IMG/VR virus record: IMGVR_UViG_3300048035_000179
Coordinates: 44 to 64,043 of that record
Direction: 5' to 3' (one strand)
Length of the DNA stretch: 64,000 bases
Origin: a virus
Taxonomy: Duplodnaviria; Caudoviricetes
Made by a program: the position numbers and the translations under genes. Of the stretch, positions 219 to 63,456 are shown piece after piece. The notes below the pieces were generated by a model. The model was not told the DNA's origin and searched no databases. It saw nothing but the letters and a program-made list of their open reading frames with translations. Every line of letters begins with the position of its first letter. The stretch's first letter is position 1.

Positions 219-374
219 ATGGCTAGAGGAGTACAGAAAGAAAAAAAATCCAATAGAATTACTTTTAGGATGACCCCAACTGAAATAGATAGGTTGAACA
301 AGGTCAGTAAATCATTAGAAATAAATGTTTCCCAAACAATAAGGAAAGCATTAAAAAACACATTCGAAATATGA
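219..374 (+). CDS. Ribbon-helix-helix (CopG/MobC-like) DNA-binding protein, 51 aa, not in the ORF track
   Basis: Hand translation MARGVQKEKKSNRITFRMTPTEIDRLNKVSKSLEINVSQTIRKALKNTFEI shows the RHH pattern: ITFR strand, helix, then N-V-S-Q-T-I-R helix. ATGA overlap with the next gene. Confidence 0.75.
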   Translation: MARGVQKEKKSNRITFRMTPTEIDRLNKVSKSLEINVSQTIRKALKNTFEI

Positions 375-1390
375 AAATGACAAGAATACCGACAGGTAAA
401 CTCACTTATGAGGAGTGGGTAGAATTAAGAAAGTCTTTAGTATACAAGGGTATGGTCGGAGGGTCTGATGCATCAACACTGCTAGGATTAAATCCATGGA
501 CTTCAAAAATTACAAGATGGAACCAATCTGTAGGGACTGCAAATATCAAGAATATTGATAACGAGGTTATGTTTCATGGTCGTCTATTAGAAGACTATGT
601 CGCTGATCTTTGGCAATATTGGACAGGAGACCCTATAGTAATGATAAATAATTATCAGTCTAAAAATAAACTTAGAAAATCTATAAGAAGAAACTCTATT
701 TTCATTAATGATGATTATCCATTTCTGTTTGCTAATATAGATAGACAAATTACTAAGCACGATGAAATTTCTGGTAAAGGAGTTTTAGAAATTAAAACTA
801 TTTCGGGATATAATGCTGATAAGTGGGATGGTGGAATTCCTCCTTATTACATCGCACAAATTCAATTATATATGTTGGTTTTAGGTTATGCCTATGGTCA
901 GTTTGCTTTTCTTAAAGACGGAAGACATATGGATGTATTTACTGTTGAGGCTAATAAAAACATCCAAGAAACAATTATAGAAGAGGCAAAGCAGTTTTAC
1001 CTAAGTGTGCAAATGGCTAGAGAAATTATAGAAAGTGGAAGACCACTTAATCAGAACGAAGCATACAAAATGGTATCTCACCTAGAACCAAGTGTAGAAG
1101 ACCAATACAAAGTCGATCTTGATCAATTTCTTTCAGAGAAGCATAAGGCAATGGTAAATAGAGTTAGGATAGATTCAGATGATGAGTTGTTAAAATTAAC
1201 AAGAGAATATATAGAGAGTAGAGATGAAGAGAAGGTTGCTAAAAACAACAAACAACTAGCAATGCAACAGATAAAACAAATCTTAATTCATCGAGGAGCA
1301 CAAGAGGTAGATTTTGGTGATAGTGGGAAGATTGTGTGGGGAAAGACATTTAATGTAAGGTTTAAAGAAAAAGAAGAAATTAATTTTTAA
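371..1390 (+). CDS. YqaJ-like viral recombinase / lambda-type exonuclease
   Basis: EEW..LR, GGSDAST.LGLNPW, GR.LE, FLFANIDR, LEIKT and YIAQIQLYM motifs. Confidence 0.92.
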   Translation: MKMTRIPTGKLTYEEWVELRKSLVYKGMVGGSDASTLLGLNPWTSKITRWNQSVGTANIKNIDNEVMFHGRLLEDYVADLWQYWTGDPIVMINNYQSKNKLRKSIRRNSIFINDDYPFLFANIDRQITKHDEISGKGVLEIKTISGYNADKWDGGIPPYYIAQIQLYMLVLGYAYGQFAFLKDGRHMDVFTVEANKNIQETIIEEAKQFYLSVQMAREIIESGRPLNQNEAYKMVSHLEPSVEDQYKVDLDQFLSEKHKAMVNRVRIDSDDELLKLTREYIESRDEEKVAKNNKQLAMQQIKQILIHRGAQEVDFGDSGKIVWGKTFNVRFKEKEEINF

Positions 1391-1391
1391 G

Positions 1392-1757
1392 ATGGATTTA
1401 AGTAAAATAAGAAAGGGTATATTAAAAAATTTAGCGGTAAAAAACCCTCATACGCTAGAGGTAAACTCAGTTATAGAAGGCAACTCGTACTTTGGGCTTT
1501 GTATATTTATAGGCTTAGGGCTTATGTTTGGTCACTCCCACAAAACTATAGCAGAATATTTATCAGAAGATGTTGATCATGTTAAGTTTTTAGAAGAAAA
1601 GTTTATCAGTATTTTAAGTGATTACTTTAACACAAAAAAACCAACAACTACTGCAAAAGGTTTTTACACAAAGACAAGTCTAGTCTTAAACTTTATAAAC
1701 AATAATTATGGTAAAAAGGTATCACTTGCTGAGGTGATTAAAGATAAAATAAAATAA
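1392..1757 (+). CDS. Hypothetical protein, possible degenerate HTH
   Basis: Tightly packed ORF. The segment GHSHKTIAEYL resembles an HTH. Confidence 0.55.
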   Translation: MDLSKIRKGILKNLAVKNPHTLEVNSVIEGNSYFGLCIFIGLGLMFGHSHKTIAEYLSEDVDHVKFLEEKFISILSDYFNTKKPTTTAKGFYTKTSLVLNFINNNYGKKVSLAEVIKDKIK

Positions 1758-1758
1758 T

Positions 1759-2028
1759 ATGAATATAAGTGTAAACGGACAAATAAGATTTATATCACAA
1801 GTAAATAAAGTTGAATCAAAAACTGACGATTTATCTCAACATATTTTTAAAATATTAGTTATCGAAACTTTAGACAACTCATACCTTGCAATTCATTGTT
1901 GGGATGGAGCAGTTGAAAAGATAAAAGATTATAAGGTAAAAGATCTTGTTGAGTTGGAATGCAGATTAGAGTCACATAGAAACAGGAAAAACAAAGATTT
2001 GTGGTATCATAAACTGTTATTAAGATGA
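1759..2028 (+). CDS. OB-fold ssDNA-binding protein, DUF3127-like paralog
   Basis: V.GQI..I N-terminus, KVKDLVELECRLESH and WYH mirror the DUF3127 layout. Confidence 0.55.
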   Translation: MNISVNGQIRFISQVNKVESKTDDLSQHIFKILVIETLDNSYLAIHCWDGAVEKIKDYKVKDLVELECRLESHRNRKNKDLWYHKLLLR

Positions 2029-2639
2029 TAAGAAGCACAACTGTAATTTATGAAGTCTTGAGAAGATATGATCTTTCTCCTATAGCCTATATGTTAAGCG
2101 ATTTAATTTATAAATACACATCTCATGATGGGTACTGTGATAAGAATTTAAAAGACTTGTCAGAGGAGTTAAATTGTTCACCTCGATCACTAACAAGATA
2201 TGTTTCAGATTTGGTAGAAAAAAAATTTATTGAAAACATTGGTACGAAATCTCATCCAAAGTACAGAACAACTCCACTTTGGTTTAGACTAGGAGTTTCA
2301 GATGGTATTGAGGTTATATCTTTAGAATATCAAAAAACATGTAAAGATGTTATTGATTATATAAATAATAAATACAACAAAAAATACAATCCAAGAACAT
2401 ACGAGAAAAGATTTAAAAGTATTCTCTCAAAAAAGTTTAATGGAGAACCTATAACAGGTAAAATTATGGTTAATGTATTTGATTGGTGTAAATCACAATG
2501 GAGTGAAAAGTATCAATCATCAGTAACCCCCGAAGTTATATTCGGAAACAAATTCACAGAGAAATATTTAATTCAATATACAGAGTGGGATTCAATTAAT
2601 AAGGTATCCCCCAACAGAAAAAGAGTAGCAATTATATGA
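2025..2639 (+). CDS. Phage replication initiator (N-terminal wHTH plus conserved phage C-terminal domain)
   Basis: HTH LKDLSEELNCSPRSLTRYVSDLVEKKFI. The C-terminal VTPEVIFGNKFTEKYL resembles Phg_2220_C. Lies directly upstream of the primase-helicase. Confidence 0.7.
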   Translation: MIRSTTVIYEVLRRYDLSPIAYMLSDLIYKYTSHDGYCDKNLKDLSEELNCSPRSLTRYVSDLVEKKFIENIGTKSHPKYRTTPLWFRLGVSDGIEVISLEYQKTCKDVIDYINNKYNKKYNPRTYEKRFKSILSKKFNGEPITGKIMVNVFDWCKSQWSEKYQSSVTPEVIFGNKFTEKYLIQYTEWDSINKVSPNRKRVAII

Positions 2640-4351
2640 CAAACTATTTATCAAAACTACAAGCACTTGGCATCGATGTCAAGAATGGCACAGGCACTGA
2701 ACCTCAAAAAACTAAGTGTCCAAAATGTTCTCACACTAGAAAAAAGAACAAAAACGAAAAATGTCTTAGGGTATGGGTAGAGACAGGAACTTATTACTGC
2801 CATCATTGTGGTGACAATGGTTCTGTTGCAGAGTATGAAACCGAATATGAATTACCAACTGTAAAAGCATCTCCTTTATCTCCTAAAATATTAAAATTTT
2901 TCAAGGATAGAGGTATAAATGAAAGCACAATAGAATACTTTGGTGTTACGGAGGGTGTAGAGTATATGCCACAAGTACAAAGTGAAAGACCTGTAATACA
3001 GTTTAATTACATTAGAAAGGGTAGGAGAATTAACATAAAATTTAGAGACTCTCAAAAGAATTTTAAACTAAACAAAGGTTCAGAAATGATCATGTATGGT
3101 TTAGATTTAATTAATCCTGCAACTTGGTGTATTATAACAGAAGGTGAGTTTGATGCAATGGCTTTTTACGAGGCAGGATTGCAAGAAAATAGACTTATGT
3201 TTGCTTGTTCTGTACCAAATGGCGCATCTACAGGAAATCAAAATCTCACATACTTAGATAATAGTATCGATGAGTTTGAAAATAAAGACAAAATATATTT
3301 AGCATTAGATAATGATGCACCAGGAATAAAACTAAGAGACGAGTTGTCAAGGCGACTAGGTAAGGATAGAGTTTGGTTAGTAAACTTTCCCGATGGATGT
3401 AAAGATGCCAATGATGTTTTACTCAAACATGGGTCGTTTGAATTAATTAAGTGTATAGACTCTGCAAAACCCTTTCCTTTGGAGGGGGTGAGTAAAGCAT
3501 CTGACTCTCGTAAAGAAATACATAATCTTTATAATCATGGAATGCCAAAGGGTGATGAGATTGGTTATAAAGAGTTTGACCAACTTATGTCATGGAGACC
3601 AAGTGAATTTACACTAGTTACAGGAGTTCCTGGTCATGGTAAGTCGTCTTTCGTTGATCAAGTTATAGTAGAGTTAGCGAGACAAGGATGGAAGTTTGGA
3701 ATATTTTCAGCAGAAAAACAACCAATAAAAGTACATGTTGCAGAATTGATAGAAAAATATACAGGTAAAAGATTTGGTAAAGGTTCAGTAGATAATTTGC
3801 AACCACACGAATTAGACCCTGCAATAGACTTTGTAAACAAACATTTCTTCTTCATAAATCTTAAGGATAATGATTTAACAGTAGAAGGTATATTGAATAA
3901 AGGAAAAGAGTTAGTTAAAAAAATGGGAATAAACTGCTTAATTATTGACAATTGGGCGTTTGTAGAGCATAAGATAGAGAGAGGAATGAATGAACATCAA
4001 TATACAGGACTTCAACTATCTAAAATAAAAATATTTAAAGAGGCTTATGACTGCGGTGTAATACTTGTTGCTCACCCTCAAAAATTAAAAAAAGAGAATG
4101 GGAAGGTAGAGGTCGCTTCAGGTTACAGCGTAAGTGGCTCTTCCCACTTCTTTAATAAAGTAGATAATGGAATTACTGTATACCGAGATTTTGAAAGAGA
4201 ACTTGTCGAGGTGCATGTTTGGAAGGTTCGATGGAGGTTCACAGGAAAAACAGGTATGCAGGAATTCAAATATAATTTAAATACTACTTGTTACACTGAA
4301 TATGAAGAAACAACACATAACGGTCAATATGCGAAATTCCAAGGACAATAA
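2636..4351 (+). CDS. T7 gp4/Twinkle-like primase-helicase
   Basis: Zn finger CPKC...CHHC, TOPRIM ITEGEFDA and DNDAPG, KDAND, Walker A GVPGHGKSS, Walker B LIIDN, and VAHP. Confidence 0.95.
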   Translation: MTNYLSKLQALGIDVKNGTGTEPQKTKCPKCSHTRKKNKNEKCLRVWVETGTYYCHHCGDNGSVAEYETEYELPTVKASPLSPKILKFFKDRGINESTIEYFGVTEGVEYMPQVQSERPVIQFNYIRKGRRINIKFRDSQKNFKLNKGSEMIMYGLDLINPATWCIITEGEFDAMAFYEAGLQENRLMFACSVPNGASTGNQNLTYLDNSIDEFENKDKIYLALDNDAPGIKLRDELSRRLGKDRVWLVNFPDGCKDANDVLLKHGSFELIKCIDSAKPFPLEGVSKASDSRKEIHNLYNHGMPKGDEIGYKEFDQLMSWRPSEFTLVTGVPGHGKSSFVDQVIVELARQGWKFGIFSAEKQPIKVHVAELIEKYTGKRFGKGSVDNLQPHELDPAIDFVNKHFFFINLKDNDLTVEGILNKGKELVKKMGINCLIIDNWAFVEHKIERGMNEHQYTGLQLSKIKIFKEAYDCGVILVAHPQKLKKENGKVEVASGYSVSGSSHFFNKVDNGITVYRDFERELVEVHVWKVRWRFTGKTGMQEFKYNLNTTCYTEYEETTHNGQYAKFQGQ

Positions 4352-4628
4352 ACAAAAACTATATAAGGTTGTGTGGGGTAGAAACAAATGGGGTACGTCT
4401 ATAGGAAAGCAGAAAGTATTTGAAAGTGGAGACTTTTTAAGACCTGCGATGCTTGATGAGGTTGTGCCTGATAAAGAAGAGTACTTTATAAGACCTAATG
4501 GAACAGGTGATTGTTATTATCTGCTTTATAAAGGTTTTGATAAGAGTGTTAAATATGATGATATAAAAACATTTGTAGAGCACAAAATGGTTTATGTCTA
4601 TAAAGATTTTAATGTATATGGGAAATAA
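4302..4628 (+). CDS. Hypothetical protein
   Basis: ORF within the operon. Start uncertain. Confidence 0.55.
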   Translation: MKKQHITVNMRNSKDNKQKLYKVVWGRNKWGTSIGKQKVFESGDFLRPAMLDEVVPDKEEYFIRPNGTGDCYYLLYKGFDKSVKYDDIKTFVEHKMVYVYKDFNVYGK

Positions 4629-4965
4629 AAACAGAAGAAAAGGTCACGATTATGAGCGTGAATTAGTTAAAGATTTTAAAAAATTAGGATTTACAAATTG
4701 TGTTACCTCTAGGTATGGCTCAAAAATGCTAGATGATCAAGGAATTGATCTTATGTATACAGGAGATTTTGCAGTACAAGCAAAATGTTACACAAGAAAT
4801 CCAAACTACAGAAAAGTATTAGAAGAGATGCAGATTAGACCTACAGATATTCCAATAGTGTTTCATAAAGTTCCAAGAGGAAGAGAGTACTGTGTTCTTT
4901 ATAAGGAAGATATGATAGAGTTAATAGAAATGTTAGTAACAAACAAAATAATAAATACACCATAA
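4594..4965 (+). CDS. Holliday junction resolvase-like PD-(D/E)XK nuclease (real start probably about 4618)
   Basis: RRKGHDYERELVKDF, GIDL and VQAK motifs of Hjc-like phage resolvases. Confidence 0.75.
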   Translation: MSIKILMYMGNKNRRKGHDYERELVKDFKKLGFTNCVTSRYGSKMLDDQGIDLMYTGDFAVQAKCYTRNPNYRKVLEEMQIRPTDIPIVFHKVPRGREYCVLYKEDMIELIEMLVTNKIINTP

Positions 4966-5202
4966 ATGAAAGAGATGCCTGTAAATTATAAAATTAGAAT
5001 ACCTACAATCGACAAGTTACTTACAGAACATAATGAGGCTCATGTAAACATTGTATCGGTAAACAACACAAAAGAAGAAATTAAAAAACTAAGAGAGTTA
5101 GATAACACTCTTGTAAAGCAAATAGATGATGTTAATAGCATTGTCTGTGAAGTCCTTGAATATTTTGAGGCGAGAGGCTTAAACACCTCTGAATATATAT
5201 AA
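4966..5202 (+). CDS. Hypothetical coiled-coil protein
   Basis: ORF within the operon. Confidence 0.55.
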   Translation: MKEMPVNYKIRIPTIDKLLTEHNEAHVNIVSVNNTKEEIKKLRELDNTLVKQIDDVNSIVCEVLEYFEARGLNTSEYI

Positions 5203-5220
5203 CACTTTAATATTTTAATT

Positions 5221-5583
5221 ATGTCAAATTCAGTAGAATTACAAGGTCGCATCAAAGAAATCTCAGATGCACAAACCATTCAAACTCAAAAAGGAGATCT
5301 TGAAAAAAGAGTACTTACAGTTGAATTAGGAGGAGACTCTCAGTATCCTGTTAATTATCCTGTAGAGGCTATTGGAGCCAAAGCAAATTTATTCAATGCT
5401 TACAATGTAGGTGATGAAGTAAAAGTTTCTGTTAACCTAAGAAGTTATACAGATCGTAATGGCGAACTAAGAACAGCAAACGCTAATGCATGGAAAATTA
5501 CTTATGCGGATGGTAATATCCCTAGTAACAACAATACCCACGCAAAGAATGTTGAAGATGCAGTAAATGATCTTGCATTTTAA
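5221..5583 (+). CDS. DUF3127 family ssDNA-binding protein (Bacteroidota phage SSB)
   Basis: ELQGRIKEI, SQYP, VGDEVKVSVNLR, AWKI and an acidic C-terminal tip NDLAF. Confidence 0.85.
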   Translation: MSNSVELQGRIKEISDAQTIQTQKGDLEKRVLTVELGGDSQYPVNYPVEAIGAKANLFNAYNVGDEVKVSVNLRSYTDRNGELRTANANAWKITYADGNIPSNNNTHAKNVEDAVNDLAF

Positions 5584-5906
5584 TGGATACTAGAGAGAAA
5601 ATTGAGAGGGTTGGTGCTGAAATCATCAGCCTTCTCATCTCTAAAAACGCTGATTATGGTGATAGTGCTACATCTCCAATAAGTGTTTTTGGTGACGGAG
5701 ATCCAATAAAATCTTTATGTGCCAGAATAGATGATAAAATATCTAGGATAAAACAAAAGGGTATTTATGACAAGACAGAAGATACTGTTAAAGATCTTAC
5801 AGGTTATTTAATTTTGTTACTTATAGCATTACGAGATCAAGAAGAAAATAAGGATGATGAAAAAACACCATCTAGGTATTTCACAAACAATAGTTGGGGG
5901 ATTTAG
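5583..5906 (+). CDS. DUF1599 / nucleotide-modification-associated domain 1 protein
   Basis: KNADYGDS, RIDDKISRI and EDTVKDLTGY motifs. Confidence 0.8.
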   Translation: MDTREKIERVGAEIISLLISKNADYGDSATSPISVFGDGDPIKSLCARIDDKISRIKQKGIYDKTEDTVKDLTGYLILLLIALRDQEENKDDEKTPSRYFTNNSWGI

Positions 5907-6537: not shown

Positions 6538-6952
6538 ATTTGTCTTGTATTGATTTGTATTCTTCTTTAGCGTCATAACTTGGACATGCCTTCGAGGAGA
6601 AGTCTCTATGACCATATACCTCAGCACCTGGATAACTAGCACAAAGATAACCAACTAAATACTCTAGGCTGTCAATTTGAGCATCCGTTCTGGTGTCTTT
6701 TGGATTCATATCCGCATCACATCCTCCGACATATGTAATACCTATACTGTATTTGTTATGTCCCTTTACGTGAGCACCTGATATATTTAGAGGTCGCCCC
6801 TGATTAATAGTTCCATCAAGTTGCACAACATAGTGATATCCTATCTGTGACCATCCTCTTTGTTTGTGCCATGAATCAATTTCCTCTACTGAAACTGGTC
6901 TACCTTCAGGAGTAGCAGTACAGTGTACTACAATCTTGTTTATTTTTCTCAT
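6527..6952 (-). CDS. Endolysin, N-acetylmuramoyl-L-alanine amidase (T7 lysozyme-like)
   Basis: IVVHCTAT, IGYHY, GAHVKGHN..SIGI and GHRDF..KACP zinc-amidase motifs. Confidence 0.95.
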   Translation of the reverse strand: MRKINKIVVHCTATPEGRPVSVEEIDSWHKQRGWSQIGYHYVVQLDGTINQGRPLNISGAHVKGHNKYSIGITYVGGCDADMNPKDTRTDAQIDSLEYLVGYLCASYPGAEVYGHRDFSSKACPSYDAKEEYKSIQDKYVR

Positions 6953-53018: not shown

Positions 53019-53047
53019 GCAATTTAAAAAAATGAACCATTGTTCAA
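53019..53047 (-). promoter_or_regulatory. Bacteroidota sigma-A-type promoter for the GroES unit
   Basis: The - strand has TTG...TAAATTGC, 7 nt before the ATG at 53011. Confidence 0.5.
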
Positions 53048-54234: not shown

Positions 54235-54396
54235 ATGAAAAAATATAATTGGACAAACTTATCAGTACAACAGAAAATTAATGTAAAACAACATGCAATC
54301 AATTTGTATGGTAAAAGATGGCACACATCCAAACCAAACTTCTGTAGCAAATTAAACTATTTAGAAATCTATAGCATACTACATAGTTATACCTAA
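54235..54396 (+). CDS. Small early hypothetical protein
   Basis: MKKYNWTNLS..., directly after the -7 box. Confidence 0.5.
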   Translation: MKKYNWTNLSVQQKINVKQHAINLYGKRWHTSKPNFCSKLNYLEIYSILHSYT

Positions 54397-54527
54397 CGAA
54401 ACCAAAGTCGAACTTTTTTAAAACTATATAGTCTTATATAGAATGTTCTTCCCTCTATAGATATTTAACAATCGTTCAAGGTCACCCCAAACTAAAATCA
54501 TTCTGTATGACATTTTTATGCACATAT

Positions 54528-54558
54528 TTTGTGGATAACTAAATTTGTTGTATATTGC
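54528..54558 (+). promoter_or_regulatory. Early promoter (Bacteroidota sigma-A type)
   Basis: TTTG (54528) N19 TATATTGC (54551), plus a perfect TAAATTTG at 54540-54547. Confidence 0.6.
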
Positions 54559-54630
54559 CAACTGAACGAGCGTTCATAACGACATATCGAACGCTAACAA
54601 ACTGAAAATCAATTATTTAAACTAAAAATT

Positions 54631-54903
54631 ATGATGCTTAACAAAATTAACCTTTCCACAATTGATGACAATACGCTTGACCAAGCGATGAATATTTTTG
54701 ATTGTATTCCTTTTACTATTCTAGACCATTACTCAAAGAAATTTAATATAGGTACACTTGATTTATGTGTAGATGTTTTATTATCTAATAAAGAATGGCA
54801 TTTGAGACTTTCACACCCTATGACATATACAACTCTTGAAGATATAATTCACGACTTTATTGGTTTAGCAAATAGAGACGAACACTTTGTTCCTAGGATT
54901 TAA
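54631..54903 (+). CDS. Early hypothetical protein
   Basis: A-rich leader. C-terminal HDFIGL.N.D.HFVPR. Confidence 0.65.
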   Translation: MMLNKINLSTIDDNTLDQAMNIFDCIPFTILDHYSKKFNIGTLDLCVDVLLSNKEWHLRLSHPMTYTTLEDIIHDFIGLANRDEHFVPRI

Positions 54904-54953
54904 GGCTAACTGATGAGGATTTAATATCCGAAACGCTGTGAAGCGTCTTAGTC
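54904..54953 (+). ncRNA. Hammerhead ribozyme, type I
   Basis: Stem I GGCTAA/TTAGTC; core CTGATGA; stem II GGAT-TTAAT-ATCC; GAAA; stem III ACGCT-GTGA-AGCGT; GUC cleavage triplet (cut after C54947). Entirely intergenic. Confidence 0.92.
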
Positions 54954-54957
54954 AATA

Positions 54958-55926
54958 ATGACAAATAATTTAAACTATTACACTATGTATGTAAACTCAA
55001 ATGGTCAATTAACAGACATTCACGCTGACCACGTGAATCCAACTCAAGCACAACAACTACTTCACAAATTCAATTTAGATTGGGAGGTAAAAAAATTCCC
55101 TCTTCAGTTTGAGACTCCATCTTCATTTAGCGATGACTCTAGACTTAACCAAAAGCACGATAGTGGTTTTTATGGTGTTGTAAGAACAGACAACAACGAT
55201 TGCTTTGGAGCATTCACAGACCAATACGAAACTTTTCAGAACTCTGAACTTGCTGAACTTGTGTTAGAAATTGCTGATGCTATTGGTCAACCTATCTCAA
55301 ATGGTGCAGAATTCAAAGGTGGTAGAAAAGTGATGTTGCAAGTTGATTTGAATCCCGTTAAAATTGGTGACGATACAATCACTAGAAAAGCAACTGCTAT
55401 CAATTCTCACGATGGCTCTACTTCATTACGATGGGGAACAACGGGAACAACTATTTCTTGTGCAAATCAATTCAGTGCAATCAGCAAAGAATTAGAGAAC
55501 TCTGTACGTCACACACGTAATATGCGAGATGCTATCTCTAGGTCTCTACGTATTCTTGAGAATATGGAAAAAGCAGATAAGTCTTTATTTGAGATATTCT
55601 CTTCTATGACTGATTACAAGGTCACCCAAAAACAAGTGAACGAGACAATCAATTTAATTACTGGTGTTGATGTCAATATGGGTGAAACCAAAGCACGTGA
55701 GCAGTATTCTACTAGAAAGTTAAATCAGACTCAAGACTTGGTGCAATCTATCGTTAAAGAGATGTCTTACAAGGGCGATACACTATGGGGATTGTTTAGT
55801 GGTGTAACACACTACACAACTCACAAAGGTGGCTCAGATAGAACTAGAGAAGAATCCAAGTATGTTGGAGGTCTTCAGAGACTCGACCAAAAGGTCTTCA
55901 ACAAGTTTGCAACTTTAGTATCATAA
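54958..55926 (+). CDS. DUF932 family phage/plasmid protein (start may be ATG 54985)
   Basis: LDWEV.K.PL, VRTD, Y...QN.E, GGRKV, NSHDGS.S, CANQ and TLWGLF.GVT.YTTH motifs. Confidence 0.9.
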   Translation: MTNNLNYYTMYVNSNGQLTDIHADHVNPTQAQQLLHKFNLDWEVKKFPLQFETPSSFSDDSRLNQKHDSGFYGVVRTDNNDCFGAFTDQYETFQNSELAELVLEIADAIGQPISNGAEFKGGRKVMLQVDLNPVKIGDDTITRKATAINSHDGSTSLRWGTTGTTISCANQFSAISKELENSVRHTRNMRDAISRSLRILENMEKADKSLFEIFSSMTDYKVTQKQVNETINLITGVDVNMGETKAREQYSTRKLNQTQDLVQSIVKEMSYKGDTLWGLFSGVTHYTTHKGGSDRTREESKYVGGLQRLDQKVFNKFATLVS

Positions 55927-55938
55927 GCAAACTAACCA

Positions 55939-55996
55939 ATCGCTAATGCCTTGCACAGAAATGTGCGAGGTTTTGGTGGTAAAGGGCAATAATGCC
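55939..55996 (+). ncRNA. Structured intergenic RNA (long GNRA-capped hairpin plus a small hairpin)
   Basis: ATCGCTAA-T-GCCTTGCACA-GAAA-TGTGCGAGGT-T-TTGGTGGT forms 18 bp with 5 G-U pairs, followed by GGCA-ATAA-TGCC. Confidence 0.55.
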
Positions 55997-56017
55997 ATAT
56001 CATTTAAACTATATAAT

Positions 56018-56152
56018 ATGAATTTAAAATTAATGATTCAAAAATCAATTATCTACACATTGACTTCATTGGTCGCAATTACTTGGACAATGCTTGTCTT
56101 TCATTTACTAACCAAAGGCATTGATGCGAACGCATCATTTGGTCTTTATTAA
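56018..56152 (+). CDS. Small membrane protein
   Basis: Start reassigned to the junction-motif ATG. One hydrophobic helix. Confidence 0.6.
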   Translation: MNLKLMIQKSIIYTLTSLVAITWTMLVFHLLTKGIDANASFGLY

Positions 56153-56163
56153 AACTATATAAT

Positions 56164-56607
56164 ATGAAACAGAATAGTAAAGAAATTACACTTTGGGCGA
56201 GACGATGCTCAGTAACACTACAAGGAATGAATGCAGGTTATGTATGGGATGATGGATGTTATTATTGTGTTGATGATGATGAAATTGCTAATGCTGAATT
56301 TAGAAAAGACAGAGAGCATATCATTAGTTACATTCCAAAAAATTTATCTGATATTGATTTCTTCGATGATTATGATGAACACGATGAGGAAAACTATCTG
56401 TCAGCAATAGATAGAGTAAAACAAAACAAGGATACTGATGAAGACTTAAAAACTCTCTCTTATTTATTTGGCTTACACTACTACACAGAATGGATGGATG
56501 ATGATGATATTCAGTATGTCGAGATAGATGGTGTAATCTATAATGAAGAAGATAAACAATTTATTATGGCGATGGAATTGAATAAGGTCGCCCAAAATTT
56601 AGGATAG
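56164..56607 (+). CDS. Acidic early hypothetical protein
   Basis: ARRCSVT..GMN.GY...YYTEW motif. Junction-motif start. Confidence 0.75.
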   Translation: MKQNSKEITLWARRCSVTLQGMNAGYVWDDGCYYCVDDDEIANAEFRKDREHIISYIPKNLSDIDFFDDYDEHDEENYLSAIDRVKQNKDTDEDLKTLSYLFGLHYYTEWMDDDDIQYVEIDGVIYNEEDKQFIMAMELNKVAQNLG

Positions 56608-56645
56608 TATGGTACTTAGGGAGCGTTCGATTCCTCCCTATCCAC
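56602..56645 (+). ncRNA. tRNA-like minihelix (acceptor stem plus T-arm only)
   Basis: GGATAG/CTATCC stem enclosing GGAG-C-G-TTCGATT-C-CTCC with a canonical T-loop. No D or anticodon arm. Confidence 0.4.
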
Positions 56646-56679
56646 AATGCAATATTGCAGATTATTTAAACTAAACAAT

Positions 56680-57048
56680 ATGGGATACAACACAGATTTT
56701 AGAGGAACGTTAGAATTCAACAAGCCTCTTACAGAAGAAATGATCAAAACTTATGAATCATTTAAAGAGATGAGACACGAAGATGGCTATCAGCCAAATG
56801 GAAAGCCTTCAATATGGTTACAATGGGAAATCGTAGAAGATGATGGAAAGCATTATCTAGAATGGGATGGAGGAGAAAAGTTTTACAAGTATGTAGAATG
56901 GCTTGAGTACGTAATTAAGTACATCTTCAAAGGATGGGGATTATTACTGAATGGTCGAATAGAATGGAGAGGTGAAGAGTGGGATGATGTTGGCTATATC
57001 GAGGTCGAAAATAACAAAGTTAAAAGTGGAGATTTACAATTTCAATAA
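56680..57048 (+). CDS. Conserved phage early protein
   Basis: MGYNTDFRG...P..W.QW...WDGGEKFY.YVEWL...LNG.I.W.GEE..D.G. Start reassigned to 56680. Confidence 0.75.
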   Translation: MGYNTDFRGTLEFNKPLTEEMIKTYESFKEMRHEDGYQPNGKPSIWLQWEIVEDDGKHYLEWDGGEKFYKYVEWLEYVIKYIFKGWGLLLNGRIEWRGEEWDDVGYIEVENNKVKSGDLQFQ

Positions 57049-57059
57049 AACTATATAAG

Positions 57060-57635
57060 ATGGCAAATAACTGCAACAATTGGATAAGTTTTGTCGGTAG
57101 CAAAACTTCCCTTAAGAGACTAGAAAAGAAACTTAAAACTTATGACAAATCTAAATACTTTACAGAGTGGAGCGAGTATGTTATAGGAATAGGTGAACTT
57201 GATGGAGGAGAAGGTTTCAAATTGAAATATGGAACTGACCATAATGTATATTATATGTATGGAACTAGATGGTTTGATTTCTTCATTGAGGAAGAGGATA
57301 ACCTTTTAAGAGTATATGGGGATTCTGCTTGGTCGCCCCCAATCAAATTTGTAGAGGAGGTTTGTAAAAAATTTAAACTCAAGGCTGAAATGGATTACGA
57401 GGAGTGTGGATGTGACTTTGGAGGTCGAGCATTTTTTGATGAACAAGGAATTATCGAACGAAAAGATTATTCATATGATCATTGGAGATACATAGATAAT
57501 TATGAGGGATGGGAAGATGAATTATCTGATAGATTTGCTGACGAGGATTTGTCTTTGGAAGAGGCTTTGGAAGAACACCCTTATGCAAAAAAAGAAGAAA
57601 TAGAAAAAATATATAATAAATCAAAAACTATATAA
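57060..57635 (+). CDS. DUF1281/YubB ferredoxin-like domain protein
   Basis: MAN.C.N, GT.W, DSAWSPP and YEE.GCDF.G motifs. Confidence 0.75.
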   Translation: MANNCNNWISFVGSKTSLKRLEKKLKTYDKSKYFTEWSEYVIGIGELDGGEGFKLKYGTDHNVYYMYGTRWFDFFIEEEDNLLRVYGDSAWSPPIKFVEEVCKKFKLKAEMDYEECGCDFGGRAFFDEQGIIERKDYSYDHWRYIDNYEGWEDELSDRFADEDLSLEEALEEHPYAKKEEIEKIYNKSKTI

Positions 57636-57636
57636 T

Positions 57637-57921
57637 ATGAAAAACAATAAACTTATAGCAGAATTTATGGGGATGACTTATGGAGATTCTTGGTATCGCA
57701 AATCAATGAGATACAACGTTTCTTGGGATTGGCTGATGCCCGTAGTTGAAAAGATTGAAAGCCTTGGTTATGAATTTACAATAGTTGAGAATAGATGTAA
57801 AGTGAGCAACAATACTGACCATTCTGTAGAAGAGTTATTTCATATAGAAACAATAGGTAGTAAGTTTAAAACTACATACGATGCCGTAGTAGAATTTATT
57901 AAAAACTATAAAAACAAATAA
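57637..57921 (+). CDS. IAEFMG...SWDWLMPVVEKIE family protein, copy 1
   Basis: Conserved blocks shared with the next gene. Confidence 0.75.
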   Translation: MKNNKLIAEFMGMTYGDSWYRKSMRYNVSWDWLMPVVEKIESLGYEFTIVENRCKVSNNTDHSVEELFHIETIGSKFKTTYDAVVEFIKNYKNK

Positions 57922-57922
57922 G

Positions 57923-58432
57923 ATGAATAGCAATAACCTTATAGCAGAATTTATGGGAATAAATGTTGTCACTATTGATAATGTTAGAAAAAACAAGAAT
58001 CCCTATATCTCATCAGCAGATGGATACCTTGAAGACGATTTAAAATACCATTGCTCTTGGGATTGGCTGATGCCTGTAGTTGAGAAAATAGAAAGCGATG
58101 AAAGGTATGATGTTAATATACTACAACATGGCACTTGTATTTTCGATAATCAAAGAGAGATAGTTAACAATATTGCCAACATTTCATTTGATAAAAAAAT
58201 TGAGCATACATATGATGCAGTATTACATTTCATCAAAGATTATAATACAAAAAAGATAGACTATTTATATCTAGTCATTTCATCTATTATGACAAGATAT
58301 GGTAGTTTAAATAATCTCAAATGTCAACTAAGAGAGGATTCCGATGTCGCATATGTCAACATTGCTGATGATACAAATATGGTAGTAAATGAACACGAAG
58401 TAGAAGATATAATTAATCAATTAATAAGATAA
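57923..58432 (+). CDS. IAEFMG...SWDWLMPVVEKIE family protein, copy 2, with a C-terminal extension
   Basis: Paralog of 57637-57921. Confidence 0.75.
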   Translation: MNSNNLIAEFMGINVVTIDNVRKNKNPYISSADGYLEDDLKYHCSWDWLMPVVEKIESDERYDVNILQHGTCIFDNQREIVNNIANISFDKKIEHTYDAVLHFIKDYNTKKIDYLYLVISSIMTRYGSLNNLKCQLREDSDVAYVNIADDTNMVVNEHEVEDIINQLIR

Positions 58433-58443
58433 AACTATATAAG

Positions 58444-58665
58444 ATGGCAAGATTTATTTTAGATGTTATGACAGAAGACATAATAAAAGTATTGGATGTA
58501 ATTGAAAGAGATCATTTTCTTTCAGACAAGGTCACCTCAATAAGATGTATTGATGAGACAAATGATAATCAGTTTTATTCTTGGGATGAAGACACATCAC
58601 CAATGATGAATGTGCTGAGTAAAAAACAATTAAAAACCGACAGAGATATTCTGTCAAAATATTAA
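58444..58665 (+). CDS. Early hypothetical protein
   Basis: Bounded by junction motifs on both sides. Confidence 0.65.
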   Translation: MARFILDVMTEDIIKVLDVIERDHFLSDKVTSIRCIDETNDNQFYSWDEDTSPMMNVLSKKQLKTDRDILSKY

Positions 58666-58676
58666 AACTATATAAT

Positions 58677-59075
58677 ATGAAAGTAAATTTAGAAGGTAGA
58701 TATACATCTACATATGGTTTTGTTGGAAACAACGGATTGGAAAAACACGCTGAAATGACGTTCGGTAAAAATTGGGAAGCCGAAGATGACGTTGAACAAA
58801 TACAACAACTTTGTGACTATATTGAATATGAAAGATACCAAGTTGATTGTATTGAAACTAGAGATGAAGAAGATATAATAGTAAGGGAAGTAGATAATTG
58901 GAAAGAACTCAAAAAATCATTTTCTGATTTGCAAATTGCATTAGAAATAAACAAGAGCAACTTAATGCAACTTGATTGGTTTAATGATTTCGTTGACTTT
59001 GTTCAAGAATATGACGACAACATATATAATAAGGCTCGTGAGTGGGCAGATAATCAAGAAGCAAAAAAAGAATGA
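58677..59075 (+). CDS. Early hypothetical protein
   Basis: Junction-motif start. Confidence 0.65.
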   Translation: MKVNLEGRYTSTYGFVGNNGLEKHAEMTFGKNWEAEDDVEQIQQLCDYIEYERYQVDCIETRDEEDIIVREVDNWKELKKSFSDLQIALEINKSNLMQLDWFNDFVDFVQEYDDNIYNKAREWADNQEAKKE

Positions 59076-59218
59076 TTATTCTGGTGGTAAATAAAAATAG
59101 ATATCTCATCAATGATAAGTCAGTAGTCGCTGATGAGGTATGTTCAAAGATACTTAAACAATATCCTTCTGATGCTGAAGTATACTTTGACGAAGTAAAA
59201 CTTACTGACGTTATTTAA
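59072..59218 (+). CDS. Small hypothetical protein (48 aa), not in the ORF track
   Basis: MIILVVNKNRYLINDK...KLTDVI. ATGA overlap, and its stop is the TAA of the junction motif. Confidence 0.6.
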   Translation: MIILVVNKNRYLINDKSVVADEVCSKILKQYPSDAEVYFDEVKLTDVI

Positions 59219-59229
59219 AACTATATAAT

Positions 59230-59508
59230 ATGATTACAAATGAAATTTTTGAGTCTTACAGAGAAGACCAAGTTAAACAAAAAGAAGCAAAAGGATTTTT
59301 AGAAAGTCAAGGATACTTTGTAGGTAATTTATGGCACGTAGATGACGTGATGAATGATTACAAGTGCAGTAGTGAGGATGCACAAGACATACTTTATTCT
59401 GCCCTTACCAATAACGCTACAATGGAAAGGATATGGTTTGCAATTCAATATCACGCTGAGAATGAATATAATCTTAAAAGGAAAAGTGATGATAGTGAAA
59501 AAAATTAA
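59230..59508 (+). CDS. Early hypothetical protein
   Basis: Junction-motif start. LW.VDDV...A..IL motif. Confidence 0.7.
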   Translation: MITNEIFESYREDQVKQKEAKGFLESQGYFVGNLWHVDDVMNDYKCSSEDAQDILYSALTNNATMERIWFAIQYHAENEYNLKRKSDDSEKN

Positions 59509-60656: not shown

Positions 60657-60811
60657 TCAGAGATAAAAAATTATTCTTTAAAATAAAAGAAATGTTTCCT
60701 GATGCTCCTGATGAGTTTATTAGAAATATGTATCACAACATAAATGGGAAAAAATTTTTATGGAAATTAACTGAAGGAATGAACGATGATTCAAACTCAG
60801 ATGTAAAATAA
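60653..60811 (+). CDS. Small hypothetical protein (52 aa), not in the ORF track
   Basis: MIRDKKLFFKIKEMFPDAPDEF..., with an ATGA overlap. Confidence 0.55.
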   Translation: MIRDKKLFFKIKEMFPDAPDEFIRNMYHNINGKKFLWKLTEGMNDDSNSDVK

Positions 60812-60884
60812 TTTGGTAAGACAATAATAAATGTTATTTTAGCAGTGTCAGACTTATTATCAAACTAAAAAAAAAACTGAAATA

Positions 60885-61196
60885 ATGAACGAAAGTAAAA
60901 TTAAATTACTGCAAGAGCAGTTCGGTTACAAACTTTACCAAGACTTAATTGACTCTGGTGAAGCATGGAAAATTGGTGGTGAGACTACTAAAAAATGTAA
61001 AGACTTACTAATTAAAGGAGTCTGTTTCCTTCCACACAAATCGGTTTATATAAATCTATTTGTATCAATTCCCTCAAGACATCAAGTAAAAAATACGGAT
61101 TTTGGCTCGTTATATCGCTCAAAAAAATATTGGGCAGATGAATGGAATATGTCTACGGAGATTGGTAAAAACATAATGAAAAGTGTAACAATTTAA
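60885..61196 (+). CDS. Hypothetical phage protein
   Basis: Q.LIDSG.AWK..G...G.C.LP...IPSR motif. Confidence 0.65.
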   Translation: MNESKIKLLQEQFGYKLYQDLIDSGEAWKIGGETTKKCKDLLIKGVCFLPHKSVYINLFVSIPSRHQVKNTDFGSLYRSKKYWADEWNMSTEIGKNIMKSVTI

Positions 61197-61784: not shown

Positions 61785-62009
61785 ATGAAGACTCATTCTA
61801 AATACAAAACTATAGCCTTAAATTTATTACAAATTAAGGAAATACCTACAACTGAAGTATGTGAACATATATACGGTTGTAAATCAAAAAAGAGTACTTT
61901 AAATCAAAAAAAGACTGGTCTTTCCCCTTTACAATTCAGTGAATCCACTAGGATTATTGAGTTCTACGGAAACCTAGCAGAAAAAATAAATAACATTTTA
62001 GATGAGTAG
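61785..62009 (+). CDS. Small HTH-like regulator
   Basis: TTEVCEHIYG...STLNQKKTG helix-turn-helix-like pattern. Confidence 0.5.
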   Translation: MKTHSKYKTIALNLLQIKEIPTTEVCEHIYGCKSKKSTLNQKKTGLSPLQFSESTRIIEFYGNLAEKINNILDE

Positions 62010-62053
62010 TGTATGAACACTTGTGCAGATTCCCCTAGGGACTGCACAAATCG

Positions 62054-62083
62054 CCCTTTCTGATCAATAGAGAGGGTTTTTTT
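62054..62083 (+). terminator. Intrinsic terminator ending the early operon
   Basis: CCCTTTCT-GATCAAT-AGAGAGGG-TTTTTTT, preceded by the hairpin TTGTGCAG...CTGCACAA (62021-62049). Confidence 0.75.
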
Positions 62084-63103: not shown

Positions 63104-63141
63104 CTGTTAATATATAGTTAATAAGTCTGACATGAACGCTT

Positions 63142-63456
63142 GTGCAGACTAATATTTTGTTTTACATTCGAGTAAATAAACCACGACATGATAAATACCA
63201 ATATGAAATGGTCAGATTTGACTACGAAAATAGCGAGATTATTCATGATCGTAAAAGGTTTTCACTGAGAGATTTTAAAATTTTTCTGTTAACACATTAC
63301 GAAGAAGTTTGTATGGAGCGCAGAATCACAGGATGGATTTTTGATTGGGAATCTATATTCTTTCACACACGAAAGTATTATATAGTAAATTTTTATTTAA
63401 ACAATTTAATAGATTATAACAATGGCAAAACTAAAAAGAAAACTAAAGACTACTAA
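63142..63456 (+). CDS. Hypothetical protein (start probably 63188 region or 63208)
   Basis: ORF between the integrase and the SSAP. The 5' part overlaps a probable promoter. Confidence 0.5.
   Translation: MQTNILFYIRVNKPRHDKYQYEMVRFDYENSEIIHDRKRFSLRDFKIFLLTHYEEVCMERRITGWIFDWESIFFHTRKYYIVNFYLNNLIDYNNGKTKKKTKDY

What the first reader, a model, noticed from the sequence alone, without database searches (positions are those of the whole stretch)
54560..56682. Candidate RNA-processing system: different structured RNAs punctuate the first gaps of the early operon
Seen: after the promoter at about 54550, nearly every intergenic gap longer than 40 nt holds a different structure. These are a leader hairpin (54569-54595), the hammerhead (54904-54953), a GU-rich 18-bp GNRA hairpin (55939-55996) and a tRNA-like minihelix (56602-56645). 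Each is followed by a related TTAAACTA...ATG leader (near 54631, 54985, 56018 and 56680). Known: T7 cuts its early polycistron at RNase III hairpins, and tRNA-like elements recruit RNase P/Z. Inference: this phage may segment one early transcript using three chemistries (self-cleavage, dsRNA nuclease, tRNA-maturation nucleases). I do not know of this combination being described.
Basis: inference. Interest (0 to 1): 0.75.

Follow-up and report, generated by a model that had tools for sequence, protein, structure and literature searches.

The report
Interchangeable RNA punctuation in phage operon
The first gene junctions of this marine phage's early operon hold a hammerhead ribozyme, a tRNA-like mini-helix and a long hairpin, which replace one another at the same junctions in related phages, so they probably cut or end the early transcript between genes.

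Summary
All four structures are at the stated coordinates.

- **Hammerhead (54904-54953):** a complete type I hammerhead. Relatives show 11 of 15 pairs with compensatory changes.
- **tRNA-like element (56602-56644):** one of 15 acceptor/T-arm mini-helices found in the window and nine related phage contigs. All pair fully, and 8 of 11 pairs covary.
- **18-bp GNRA hairpin (55939-55980):** a conserved module made of a variable stem, a U-run and an invariant tail. It could be an RNase III site or a terminator; I could not decide.
- **Leader hairpin (54569-54595):** the weakest claim. Its left arm is a palindrome that recurs at other promoter regions and in either orientation in relatives, so it looks like a DNA operator.

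New here: at the two junctions flanking an orthologous DUF932 gene, relatives carry a type I hammerhead, a type III hammerhead, a tRNA-like element or the hairpin module. Real tRNA-Arg genes occupy similar gaps. Each module is followed by a small AU-loop hairpin 5-9 nt before the start motif. That TTTAAACTATATAAT-ATG motif precedes 10 early genes and is not specific to structured gaps.

Transcript segmentation is the best reading (about 0.55) but no RNA ends were seen. Hammerheads flanking prophage genes are already published; the mixed, swappable set appears new.

The parts
54528..54557 (+). Bacteroidetes-type promoter-like site: TTTG, 19 nt, TATATTG
   Evidence: Read. The second box is conserved upstream of the same operon in L001, L003, L004, L009, L010, L011 and L120. 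The consensus is recalled, not tested.
54563..54576 (.). Perfect palindrome TGAACG/CGTTCA, operator-like, at the expected transcript start
   Evidence: Exact match. One-mismatch copies lie at 53033, 54465, 60780 and 63133, all intergenic. In relatives the half-site occurs in either orientation.
54569..54595 (+).
   Evidence: MFE fold, z -2.49. Conserved only in the closest relatives L001 and L120.
54616..54630 (+). Start context TTTAAACTA... before ATG 54631
54631..54903 (+). First early gene, 90 aa, no Pfam family
54904..54953 (+). Type I hammerhead. Stem I 54904-09 with 54948-53; core 54910-16; stem II 54917-29; GAAA 54930-33; stem III 54933-46; predicted cut after C54947
   Evidence: Model R1 scores 76.3 bits (the window is a seed sequence of R1). 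Covariation.
54951..54962 (+). Small hairpin (4 bp, AUAA loop). Shares 54951-53 with hammerhead stem I, 7 nt before TTAAAC
54969..54984 (+). Start context before ATG 54985
54985..55926 (+). DUF932 gene, 313 aa. The ATG at 54958 listed by the ORF tool lies in the small hairpin and is probably not the start
   Evidence: Pfam PF06067, E 3.8e-20. Orthologues at 77-94% identity.
55939..55980 (+). Long hairpin: 10-bp upper stem with GAAA loop, 1x1 mismatch, 8-bp GU-rich lower stem. Its 3' strand holds the U-run and part of the invariant run TTTTGGTGGTAAAGG (55971-55985), which extends just past the stem into the next feature
55985..55996 (+). Small hairpin (4 bp, AUAA loop), 7 nt before TTAAAC
56003..56017 (+). 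Start context TTTAAACTATATAAT before ATG 56018 (44-aa gene, 56018-56152)
   Evidence: The ORF at 55946 is an artefact of an ATG inside the hairpin module.
56164..56607 (+). 147-aa gene whose stop codon TAG (56605-56607) lies inside the tRNA-like element
56602..56644 (+). tRNA-like mini-helix: acceptor-like stem 56602-06 with 56639-43; 12-nt linker containing UGG; T-arm with one bulged C; T-loop UUCGAUU at 56626-32; A56644 at the discriminator position; no CCA
   Evidence: ARAGORN finds no tRNA.
56648..56659 (+). Small hairpin (4 bp, AUAU loop), 6 nt before TTAAAC
56665..56679 (+). Start context before ATG 56680 (122-aa gene; the ATG at 56647 is probably not the start)

Best explanation
The window is a complete, uncultivated marine tailed phage. 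Its nearest cultured relatives infect Flavobacteriia. A host-type promoter near 54528-54557 drives a long early operon.

The first three junctions longer than 40 nt each hold a different conserved RNA module: a type I hammerhead, a long GNRA hairpin with a U-run and an invariant tail, and a tRNA-like acceptor/T-arm mini-helix. In related phages these modules, together with type III hammerheads and real tRNA-Arg genes, stand in for one another at the same junctions.

Each module is followed by a small AU-loop hairpin, usually 5-9 nt before the operon's start motif.

Most likely the modules create RNA ends between cistrons:
- The hammerhead cuts itself after C54947.
- Host tRNA 3'-end enzymes cut just after the mini-helix.
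- The long hairpin is either cut by a double-strand nuclease or stops part of the transcription.

The upstream mRNA then ends in a folded module, and the downstream mRNA begins with the small hairpin. Both ends would resist exonucleases and uncouple the neighbouring genes.

What is shown: the structures, their conservation and covariation, their interchange, and the fixed downstream hairpin. What is inferred: any cleavage, the enzymes involved, and the stabilising effect.
For: **Phage identity**
- The record is 64,043 nt and rated 100% complete.
- It encodes portal, terminase and tail fibres.
- The terminase's nearest isolates are Flavobacterium, Cellulophaga, Tenacibaculum and Maribacter phages at about 31% identity.

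**Hammerhead**
- The core and three helices can be read directly and are recovered as the MFE fold.
- Model R1 was built from 3 sequences. It finds non-seed copies at L003:4943 (39.5 bits), L131 (60.5) and L103:2535 (54.1). In about 1.25 Mb of loci it gives only 3 other hits, at E 0.4-0.5.
- On 6 distinct sequences, 98.9% of 90 cells pair and 11 of 15 pairs have compensatory changes. 0 of 500 shuffles reach this, and slid controls pair 27-39%.
- Type III hammerheads lie at L003:3911-3961 and L011:3925-3979. A further type I with a CUGACGA core lies near L003:5486-5541.

**tRNA-like element**
- All 15 instances form an 11-13 bp coaxial helix with a UUCGAnU loop and a 10-13 nt linker.
- On plain MAFFT alignments, 100% of 77 cells pair with 8 of 11 pairs compensatory, and 100% of 72 cells pair with 4 of 12 compensatory.
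- tRNA-Arg(UCU) genes sit in gaps of the same operon in L004, L009, L010, L011 and L013; a sixth, in L003, lies upstream of the early promoter region.

**Interchange at the DUF932 junctions**
- Downstream junction, 13 covered: hairpin module 7, tRNA-like element 5, type I hammerhead 1.
- Upstream junction, 13 covered: hairpin module 7, type I hammerhead 2, type III hammerhead 2, none 2.

**Small hairpin**
- It is present in 19 of 28 distinct module-following starts, against 10 of 76 starts without a module. Fisher p = 1.5e-7.

**Location**
- Whole-record searches of five relatives find the modules only in the early-operon region.
Against: - No RNA ends were observed.
- Rfam gives no hammerhead hit, or any other hit, at gathering score in the window. 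It gives none at E up to 10 in 54300-57000.
- The hammerhead has short stems, and I found no convincing stem I / loop II tertiary contact. It could be slow at cellular Mg2+.
- The mini-helix has 11 bp rather than the canonical 12, a bulge in its T-stem and no CCA. Its 5' strand contains the upstream gene's stop codon, so a 5' cut would give a non-stop mRNA.
- The upper stem plus U-run of the long hairpin fits an intrinsic terminator. A terminator needs no nuclease.
- Only three of the operon's junctions carry a module. The other nine junctions that I examined are 0-11 nt long and carry none, so segmentation is partial at best.
- Several loci (L004, L005, L006, L008, L013) are near-identical. 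The junction tallies therefore overcount independent lineages.
- Model R1's alignment is fitted to its own structure.
- Module borders coincide with mosaic gene-content breaks. This also fits a recombination role.
Confidence: 0.55

Rival explanations
1. The modules are mainly recombination linkers. Conserved non-coding blocks at gene borders (module, small hairpin, start motif) would let related phages exchange early-gene cassettes, as proposed for the promoter/stem-loop cassettes of T4-type phages. Any RNA activity would be secondary.
For: - Gene content between modules differs strongly among relatives, while the modules and the start motif are kept.
- One module type appears at different junctions. 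L004 has the hairpin module on both sides of DUF932, and L001 has two identical hammerheads 223 nt apart.
Against: - Recombination linkers need sequence identity, not base pairing. Here the stems change sequence while keeping their pairs.
- The hammerhead's catalytic core is intact in every copy.
- Tight junctions keep the start motif without any module, so the motif alone could serve as a linker.
Confidence: 0.2
2. The elements are unrelated devices that happen to sit in gaps. The long hairpin would be an intrinsic terminator or attenuator that sets early-gene polarity. The tRNA-like element would be a degenerate tRNA remnant, or a decoy or ligand for a tRNA-binding host factor. The leader palindrome would be an operator. 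Only the hammerhead would cut.
For: - The hairpin module always has a GC-rich stem followed by four or five U. In L103 the stem is wholly different while the U-run and tail are kept.
- Full tRNA-Arg genes occur in the same gaps.
- Operator-like palindromes lie in promoter-like and other intergenic regions.
Against: - Substitution of the three types at one syntenic junction, and the shared small hairpin at fixed distance behind all of them, are hard to explain without a common role.
- The lower stem of the long hairpin uses bases 3' of the U-run and is kept with different 5' partners in four variants. A plain terminator does not need this.
- A decaying tRNA remnant would not keep 100% pairing with compensatory changes.
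Confidence: 0.2
3. The structures are chance folds in AT-rich spacers.
For: - Fold z-scores for the hammerhead gap (-1.56) and the tRNA-like gap (-1.40) are unremarkable.
- Rfam finds nothing.
Against: - Covariation.
- Recurrence in relatives.
- Descriptor scan: 1 hit against 0.05 expected.
Confidence: 0.02

Closest known systems
Tandem hammerhead ribozymes flanking genes in prophages (Perreault et al. 2011, PMC3088659; passages read)
   Same: - Several hammerheads lie between genes of one phage transcription unit.
- The authors proposed that long phage transcripts are cut to operon- or gene-length mRNAs. About 2-kb constructs cleaved in vitro at every ribozyme.
   Different: - Here hammerheads are one of several module types that replace each other at a junction.
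- Each is followed by a dedicated small hairpin and a fixed start motif.
- The host group is marine Flavobacteriia.
- I could not see that paper's supplementary alignment, so these copies may already be listed there.
RNase III processing of the T7 early polycistron (recalled; no paper read)
   Same: An early phage operon from host promoters, with hairpins between cistrons. The processed mRNAs end in stable stems.
   Different: - T7 uses one chemistry at every junction.
- Here only one of three modules is a long hairpin. Its nuclease is untested, and it carries a terminator-like U-run.
tRNA punctuation of mitochondrial transcripts and plant mitochondrial t-elements (PMC1920247, seen only as title and start of abstract; the rest recalled)
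   Same: tRNAs or tRNA-like folds between coding regions serve as signals for tRNA-end nucleases, which define mRNA ends.
   Different: - Here the carrier is a bacterial virus.
- The element is a mini-helix with no D or anticodon arm.
- It is mixed with ribozymes and hairpins, and only some junctions have it.
HDV-like theta ribozymes next to phage tRNAs (PMC10879173; search listing only)
   Same: Small self-cleaving ribozymes and tRNA-type structures are used together in phage RNA maturation.
   Different: - Theta ribozymes accompany functional suppressor tRNAs.
- Here the ribozyme and the tRNA-like element are alternatives at mRNA junctions.
Synthetic ribozyme insulators (RiboJ) and tRNA-spaced guide arrays (recalled)
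   Same: A ribozyme or tRNA is followed by a short hairpin and then the translation start, which frees a cistron from its upstream context.
   Different: Those are engineered parts. This would be a natural counterpart, and its function is untested.
Promoter/stem-loop cassettes of T4-type phages (recalled)
   Same: Repeated short structured non-coding blocks at the borders of early genes in mosaic regions.
   Different: I found no promoter in the blocks here. The blocks are catalytic or tRNA-like RNAs with covarying stems.

Membership tests
Hammerhead ribozyme, type I | Conserved core: CUGANGA, GAAA, A15.1-U16.1 pair, and a cleavage-site nucleotide that is not G | tested here: met
   CUGAUGA at 54910-16, GAAA at 54930-33, A54933 paired with U54946, C54947. 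The core is kept in all R1 hits.
Hammerhead ribozyme, type I | Three helices around the core, with stem I open, supported by covariation | tested here: met
   MFE fold. 11 of 15 pairs compensatory, 98.9% of cells paired, 0 of 500 shuffles as high (the alignment was fitted to the model).
Hammerhead ribozyme, type I | Match to the curated Rfam hammerhead models | tested here: not met
   No hit at gathering score and none at E up to 10. The stems are short, so a low score is plausible.
Hammerhead ribozyme, type I | Tertiary contact between stem I and stem II that gives fast cleavage | tested here: inconclusive
   Reading by eye gives at most 3 possible pairs between loop II and the flanks of stem I. 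No covariation test was possible.
Hammerhead ribozyme, type I | Self-cleavage | not testable with these tools
   Needs in vitro transcription.
tRNA / tRNA-like processing signal (mini-helix, t-element) | Acceptor stem stacked on a T-stem, about 12 bp in all, closed by a 7-nt T-loop of the UUCRANY type | tested here: met
   11 bp in the window and 11-13 bp in all 15 instances, with a UUCGAnU loop. Covariation.
tRNA / tRNA-like processing signal (mini-helix, t-element) | Full cloverleaf with D and anticodon arms (that is, a real tRNA) | tested here: not met
   ARAGORN tRNAs in the window and calls none of the 15 elements. A 10-13 nt linker replaces both arms.
tRNA / tRNA-like processing signal (mini-helix, t-element) | 3' CCA or an RCCA tail | tested here: not met
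   The tails read ACAA, ACGA, UCAA, UCUA, AUCU or CAAA. By my reading, the phage tRNA-Arg genes of relatives also lack an encoded CCA.
tRNA / tRNA-like processing signal (mini-helix, t-element) | Cleavage by RNase P and/or RNase Z | not testable with these tools
   Needs enzyme assays or end-mapping.
RNase III processing hairpin (T7 type) | About two turns of mostly paired RNA, with an internal loop, between cistrons | tested here: inconclusive
   18 pairs with one mismatch in the window. Upper and lower stems are kept in four variants. Only 2 of 18 pairs are compensatory in the 9-sequence alignment, where L103 is misaligned.
Intrinsic terminator | GC-rich hairpin directly followed by a U-run | tested here: inconclusive
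   The 10-bp upper stem is followed by GUUUU or UUUUU in all variants. The consensus scan did not list it, probably because the helix runs on through the U-run.

The most novel reading that the evidence does not exclude
Flavobacteriia phages may carry a modular punctuation kit for early mRNAs. Self-cleaving hammerheads (types I and III), real tRNAs, a new class of armless tRNA-like mini-helix and a long hairpin would be functionally equivalent, swappable end-forming cassettes. Each would be coupled to a dedicated 5'-cap hairpin at fixed distance from a clade-specific translation start motif. That would be a viral counterpart of mitochondrial tRNA punctuation and a natural precedent for ribozyme and tRNA insulators. 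The mini-helix would stay on the upstream mRNA as a 3' cap instead of being released.
Probability: 0.35. Interest if true: 0.8.

Novelty: new variant of a known kind. Interest (0 to 1): 0.64.

Why it matters
If the modules do cut the transcript, this phage group shows that evolution treats a ribozyme, a tRNA, a tRNA mimic and a hairpin as interchangeable solutions to one problem: separating cistrons and protecting their ends.

It would offer:
- a compact new tRNA-like fold to test as an RNase P/Z substrate;
- natural ribozyme-plus-hairpin insulators that work in Bacteroidetes, where translation signals differ from the Shine-Dalgarno rule (recalled);
- a ready comparative set for asking why only the first junctions of an early operon are punctuated.

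If the modules do not cut, the covarying mini-helix family and the invariant tail of the hairpin module still need an explanation.

Tried and rejected
- **Rfam.** No match at gathering score in the window. Only chance-level snoRNA and miRNA hits at E up to 10 in 54300-57000.
- **blastn of 54300-57000 against cultured phages.** No match.
- **Scan of IMG/VR for TTTTGGTGGTAAAGG.** Only 17 of 136 matches in all held loci had the module context, and only L120 and L103 were new relatives. The rest served as an imperfect background, because some carry hammerheads of their own (L022, L131).
- **MAFFT alignments A1 and A2 of hammerheads.** They misplaced stem III, so I seeded the model with three equal-length copies.
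- **Model R2 alignment A7.** It had 83 columns with local hits and was not used for counting.
- **RNA runs.** Four metatranscriptome runs were laid on 54400-57100. All are kept as assembled contigs, which cannot show ends. Contig breaks fell at the repeated start motif and module sequences, as expected for repeats. I draw nothing from them about transcription or cleavage.
- **tRNA-like element as an attP copy of a host tRNA 3' end.** Rejected. It has its own covarying 5' strand, occurs up to three times per contig, and lies 5.5 kb from the integrase-like gene.
- **Small hairpin plus start motif as a promoter for a phage RNA polymerase.** No polymerase, sigma factor, RNase, RNA ligase or kinase family appeared in the 42 ORFs I scanned. 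The other ORFs were not scanned, and the 2663-aa protein has no informative hit, so this is not excluded.
- **Literature.** Searches found no description of tRNA-like mini-helices or mixed modules punctuating phage operons. Subscription journals and supplementary files were not searchable.
Full report
**What the window is.** The window is almost all of a 64,043-nt IMG/VR virus record rated 100% complete. It is 29-38% G+C in 2-kb windows. Late genes lie on the minus strand: portal, large terminase, head and tail-fibre proteins. A long plus-strand block starts near 54.5 kb and continues through 64000 and 371-5906. That block encodes a DUF932 protein, a YqaJ-type exonuclease, a primase-helicase and an integrase-like protein. 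The terminase's nearest cultured relatives are phages of Flavobacterium, Cellulophaga, Tenacibaculum and Maribacter, at about 31% identity. DNA runs holding the stretch are seawater or marine metagenomes.

Upstream of the block I read TTTG (54528-31), 19 nt, then TATATTG (54551-57). This fits the Bacteroidetes promoter consensus as I recall it. The second box is kept in relatives.

**The observation.** All four structures are at the stated places. The gene map needs three corrections. The real starts are ATG 54985, 56018 and 56680. The ORF tool's earlier ATGs at 54958, 55946 and 56647 lie inside hairpins.

The motif T(T/A)AAACTATATAA(T/G) directly precedes 10 gene starts between 54631 and 59230. 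Six of these are at 11-nt or overlapping junctions without any structure. It is therefore the early operon's start context, not a partner of the structures. The minus-strand late genes do not use it; one look-alike lies inside the terminase gene.

**Relatives.** The DUF932 protein recovered 13 IMG/VR loci at 77-94% identity. Pattern scans added L120 and the more distant L103. Some loci are near-identical to each other (L004, L005, L006, L008, L013).

**Hammerhead.**
- The gap 54904-54984 begins right after the upstream stop codon with a textbook type I hammerhead. The MFE fold of the gap returns exactly this junction.
- A descriptor scan of my own found 1 site in the window, against 0.05 expected. 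It found 9 sites in 159 kb of related loci, including two type III forms.
- Covariance model R1, seeded with three copies, found non-seed copies at L003:4943, L103:2535 and L131. It found almost nothing else in about 1.25 Mb.
- On six distinct sequences, 11 of 15 pairs show compensatory changes and 98.9% of cells pair. This alignment is fitted to the model.
- L003 carries four hammerheads in 3 kb.
- Against membership: Rfam's own models do not report the element, and I saw no clear tertiary contact.

**tRNA-like element.** Fifteen elements in the window and nine loci share one plan. It consists of a 3-7 bp acceptor-like stem and a 10-13 nt linker that always contains GG (UGG in 14 of 15). A T-stem, a UUCGAnU loop and no spacer between T-stem and acceptor 3' strand give 11-13 stacked pairs. 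The linker's GG recalls the D-loop residues that dock on the T-loop in tRNA; this is recalled and not tested.

Two MAFFT alignments not fitted to any structure give 100% pairing, with 8 of 11 and 4 of 12 compensatory pairs. ARAGORN calls none of them a tRNA. It does find tRNA-Arg(UCU) genes in gaps of the same operon in five loci, and a sixth, in L003, upstream of the early promoter region.

In the window the element's first stem contains the stop codon of gene 56164-56607. In L002 the stop lies just upstream. A 5' cut by RNase P would therefore leave a non-stop message in the window. I favour a cut after the discriminator position, which leaves the fold on the upstream mRNA.

**Long hairpin.** Every variant of this module has three parts: a GC-rich upper stem with a tetraloop-sized loop, four or five U, and the invariant run GGUGGUAAAGG leading into the small hairpin.
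- Close relatives differ by one or two compensatory pairs.
- L103 has an entirely different stem with the same tail.
- In four variants the invariant GGUGG pairs, through G-U wobbles, with different 5' sequences to form a lower stem. The z-scores range from -3.3 to -4.9.
- The upper stem plus U-run looks like a terminator. The conserved lower stem, which uses bases beyond the U-run, looks like a double-strand processing signal. I cannot decide between them.

**Leader.** The left arm of the leader hairpin is a perfect palindrome at 54563-54576. One-mismatch copies lie at four other intergenic sites. One of these, at 60780, precedes a second promoter-like site. In relatives the half-site occurs in either orientation just after the promoter box. 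Orientation independence points to a DNA operator rather than an RNA signal.

**Interchange and the small hairpin.**
- At the junction downstream of the DUF932 orthologue, 13 loci (counting the window) carry the hairpin module (7), the tRNA-like element (5) or a type I hammerhead (1).
- At the upstream junction, 13 carry the hairpin module (7), a type I hammerhead (2), a type III hammerhead (2) or none (2).
- Behind modules of every type lies a 12-nt hairpin with a conserved CA...UG closing pair, an AU-only loop and a variable outer stem. It usually sits 5-9 nt before TTAAAC. It occurs at 19 of 28 distinct module-following starts and at 10 of 76 starts without a module (p = 1.5e-7).
- In the window's hammerhead the hairpin shares three bases with stem I. 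After cleavage the 3' product could refold into a 5'-terminal hairpin.
- Predicted cuts after the mini-helix or after a tRNA would also leave the hairpin 0-3 nt from the new 5' end. This is my inference.

**Where the modules are.** Whole-record searches of five relatives, one of them complete, found modules only in the early-operon region. A gapped pattern scan found further tRNA-like elements in front of the same or a similar start motif in other IMG/VR contigs (L160, L148/L163, L171).

**Mechanism and its limits.** The shared position, the swapping and the common downstream hairpin fit end-forming punctuation best. Hammerheads flanking prophage genes, with this very proposal, are in print (PMC3088659, passages read). 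T7 RNase III processing and mitochondrial tRNA punctuation are recalled parallels.

No RNA ends were seen. No RNA-processing enzyme was recognised among the 42 phage ORFs scanned. Only three junctions of the operon are punctuated. Module borders coincide with mosaic breaks, which keeps a recombination-linker role alive.

I rate the structures as real at about 0.9 for the hammerhead and the mini-helix. I rate the segmentation model at about 0.55.

Noticed in passing
window, 16 sites, e.g. 54042, 54480, 55620, 56586, 57331, 62533: The 8-mer GGTCRCCC occurs 16 times against 0.6 expected. 13 copies are on the plus strand regardless of gene orientation, and the motif often runs on as ...CCCCAAA. 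It also sits upstream of the early promoters and next to some modules in relatives. Its function is unknown.
   Followed up: partly
window 53033-53046, 54465-54478, 54563-54576, 60780-60793, 63133-63146: Palindromes of the form TGAAC-N4-GTTCA (one exact, four with one mismatch) all lie in intergenic regions, one of them just upstream of a promoter-like site. They look like operators of one phage regulator.
   Followed up: partly
window about 60820-60850 and 62040-62075: A second Bacteroidetes-type promoter-like site lies before the gene at 60885. A classic terminator (GC stem plus seven U) lies after the gene ending at 62009. The plus-strand block is therefore more than one transcription unit.
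   Followed up: no
L003:3911-3961, 4943-4994, about 5486-5541, 6778-6852: One relative has four hammerheads in 3 kb: one type III and three type I. One has a CUGACGA core. Another has a large stem III loop that could pair with loop II.
   Followed up: partly
L002:8225-8330 and L012:3106-3211: A 106-nt type I hammerhead candidate with a 26-nt loop in stem II and a long stem III. It is directly preceded by the GGTCACCC motif.
   Followed up: no
L148 and L163 (about 1843 and 2178 on the minus strand), L160, L171: Other IMG/VR contigs carry tRNA-like elements in front of TTAAACTATA. In L148/L163 the linker is only 3 nt and a small AAUAAU-loop hairpin follows. The kit seems wider than the DUF932-bearing group.
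   Followed up: no
window 54616-59230, plus strand: The early-gene start motif T(T/A)AAACTATATAA(T/G)-ATG embeds the upstream TAA stop at tight junctions. It is absent from late genes. It may be a clade-specific translation or re-initiation signal in a host group that does not rely on Shine-Dalgarno pairing (recalled).
   Followed up: partly
window 54468-54984: In contigs of two metatranscriptome runs, a relative has this stretch replaced by 527 other letters. The stretch holds the promoter, the first gene and the hammerhead. The right border falls exactly at the DUF932 start codon, so this is a cassette swap bounded by the start motif.
   Followed up: no
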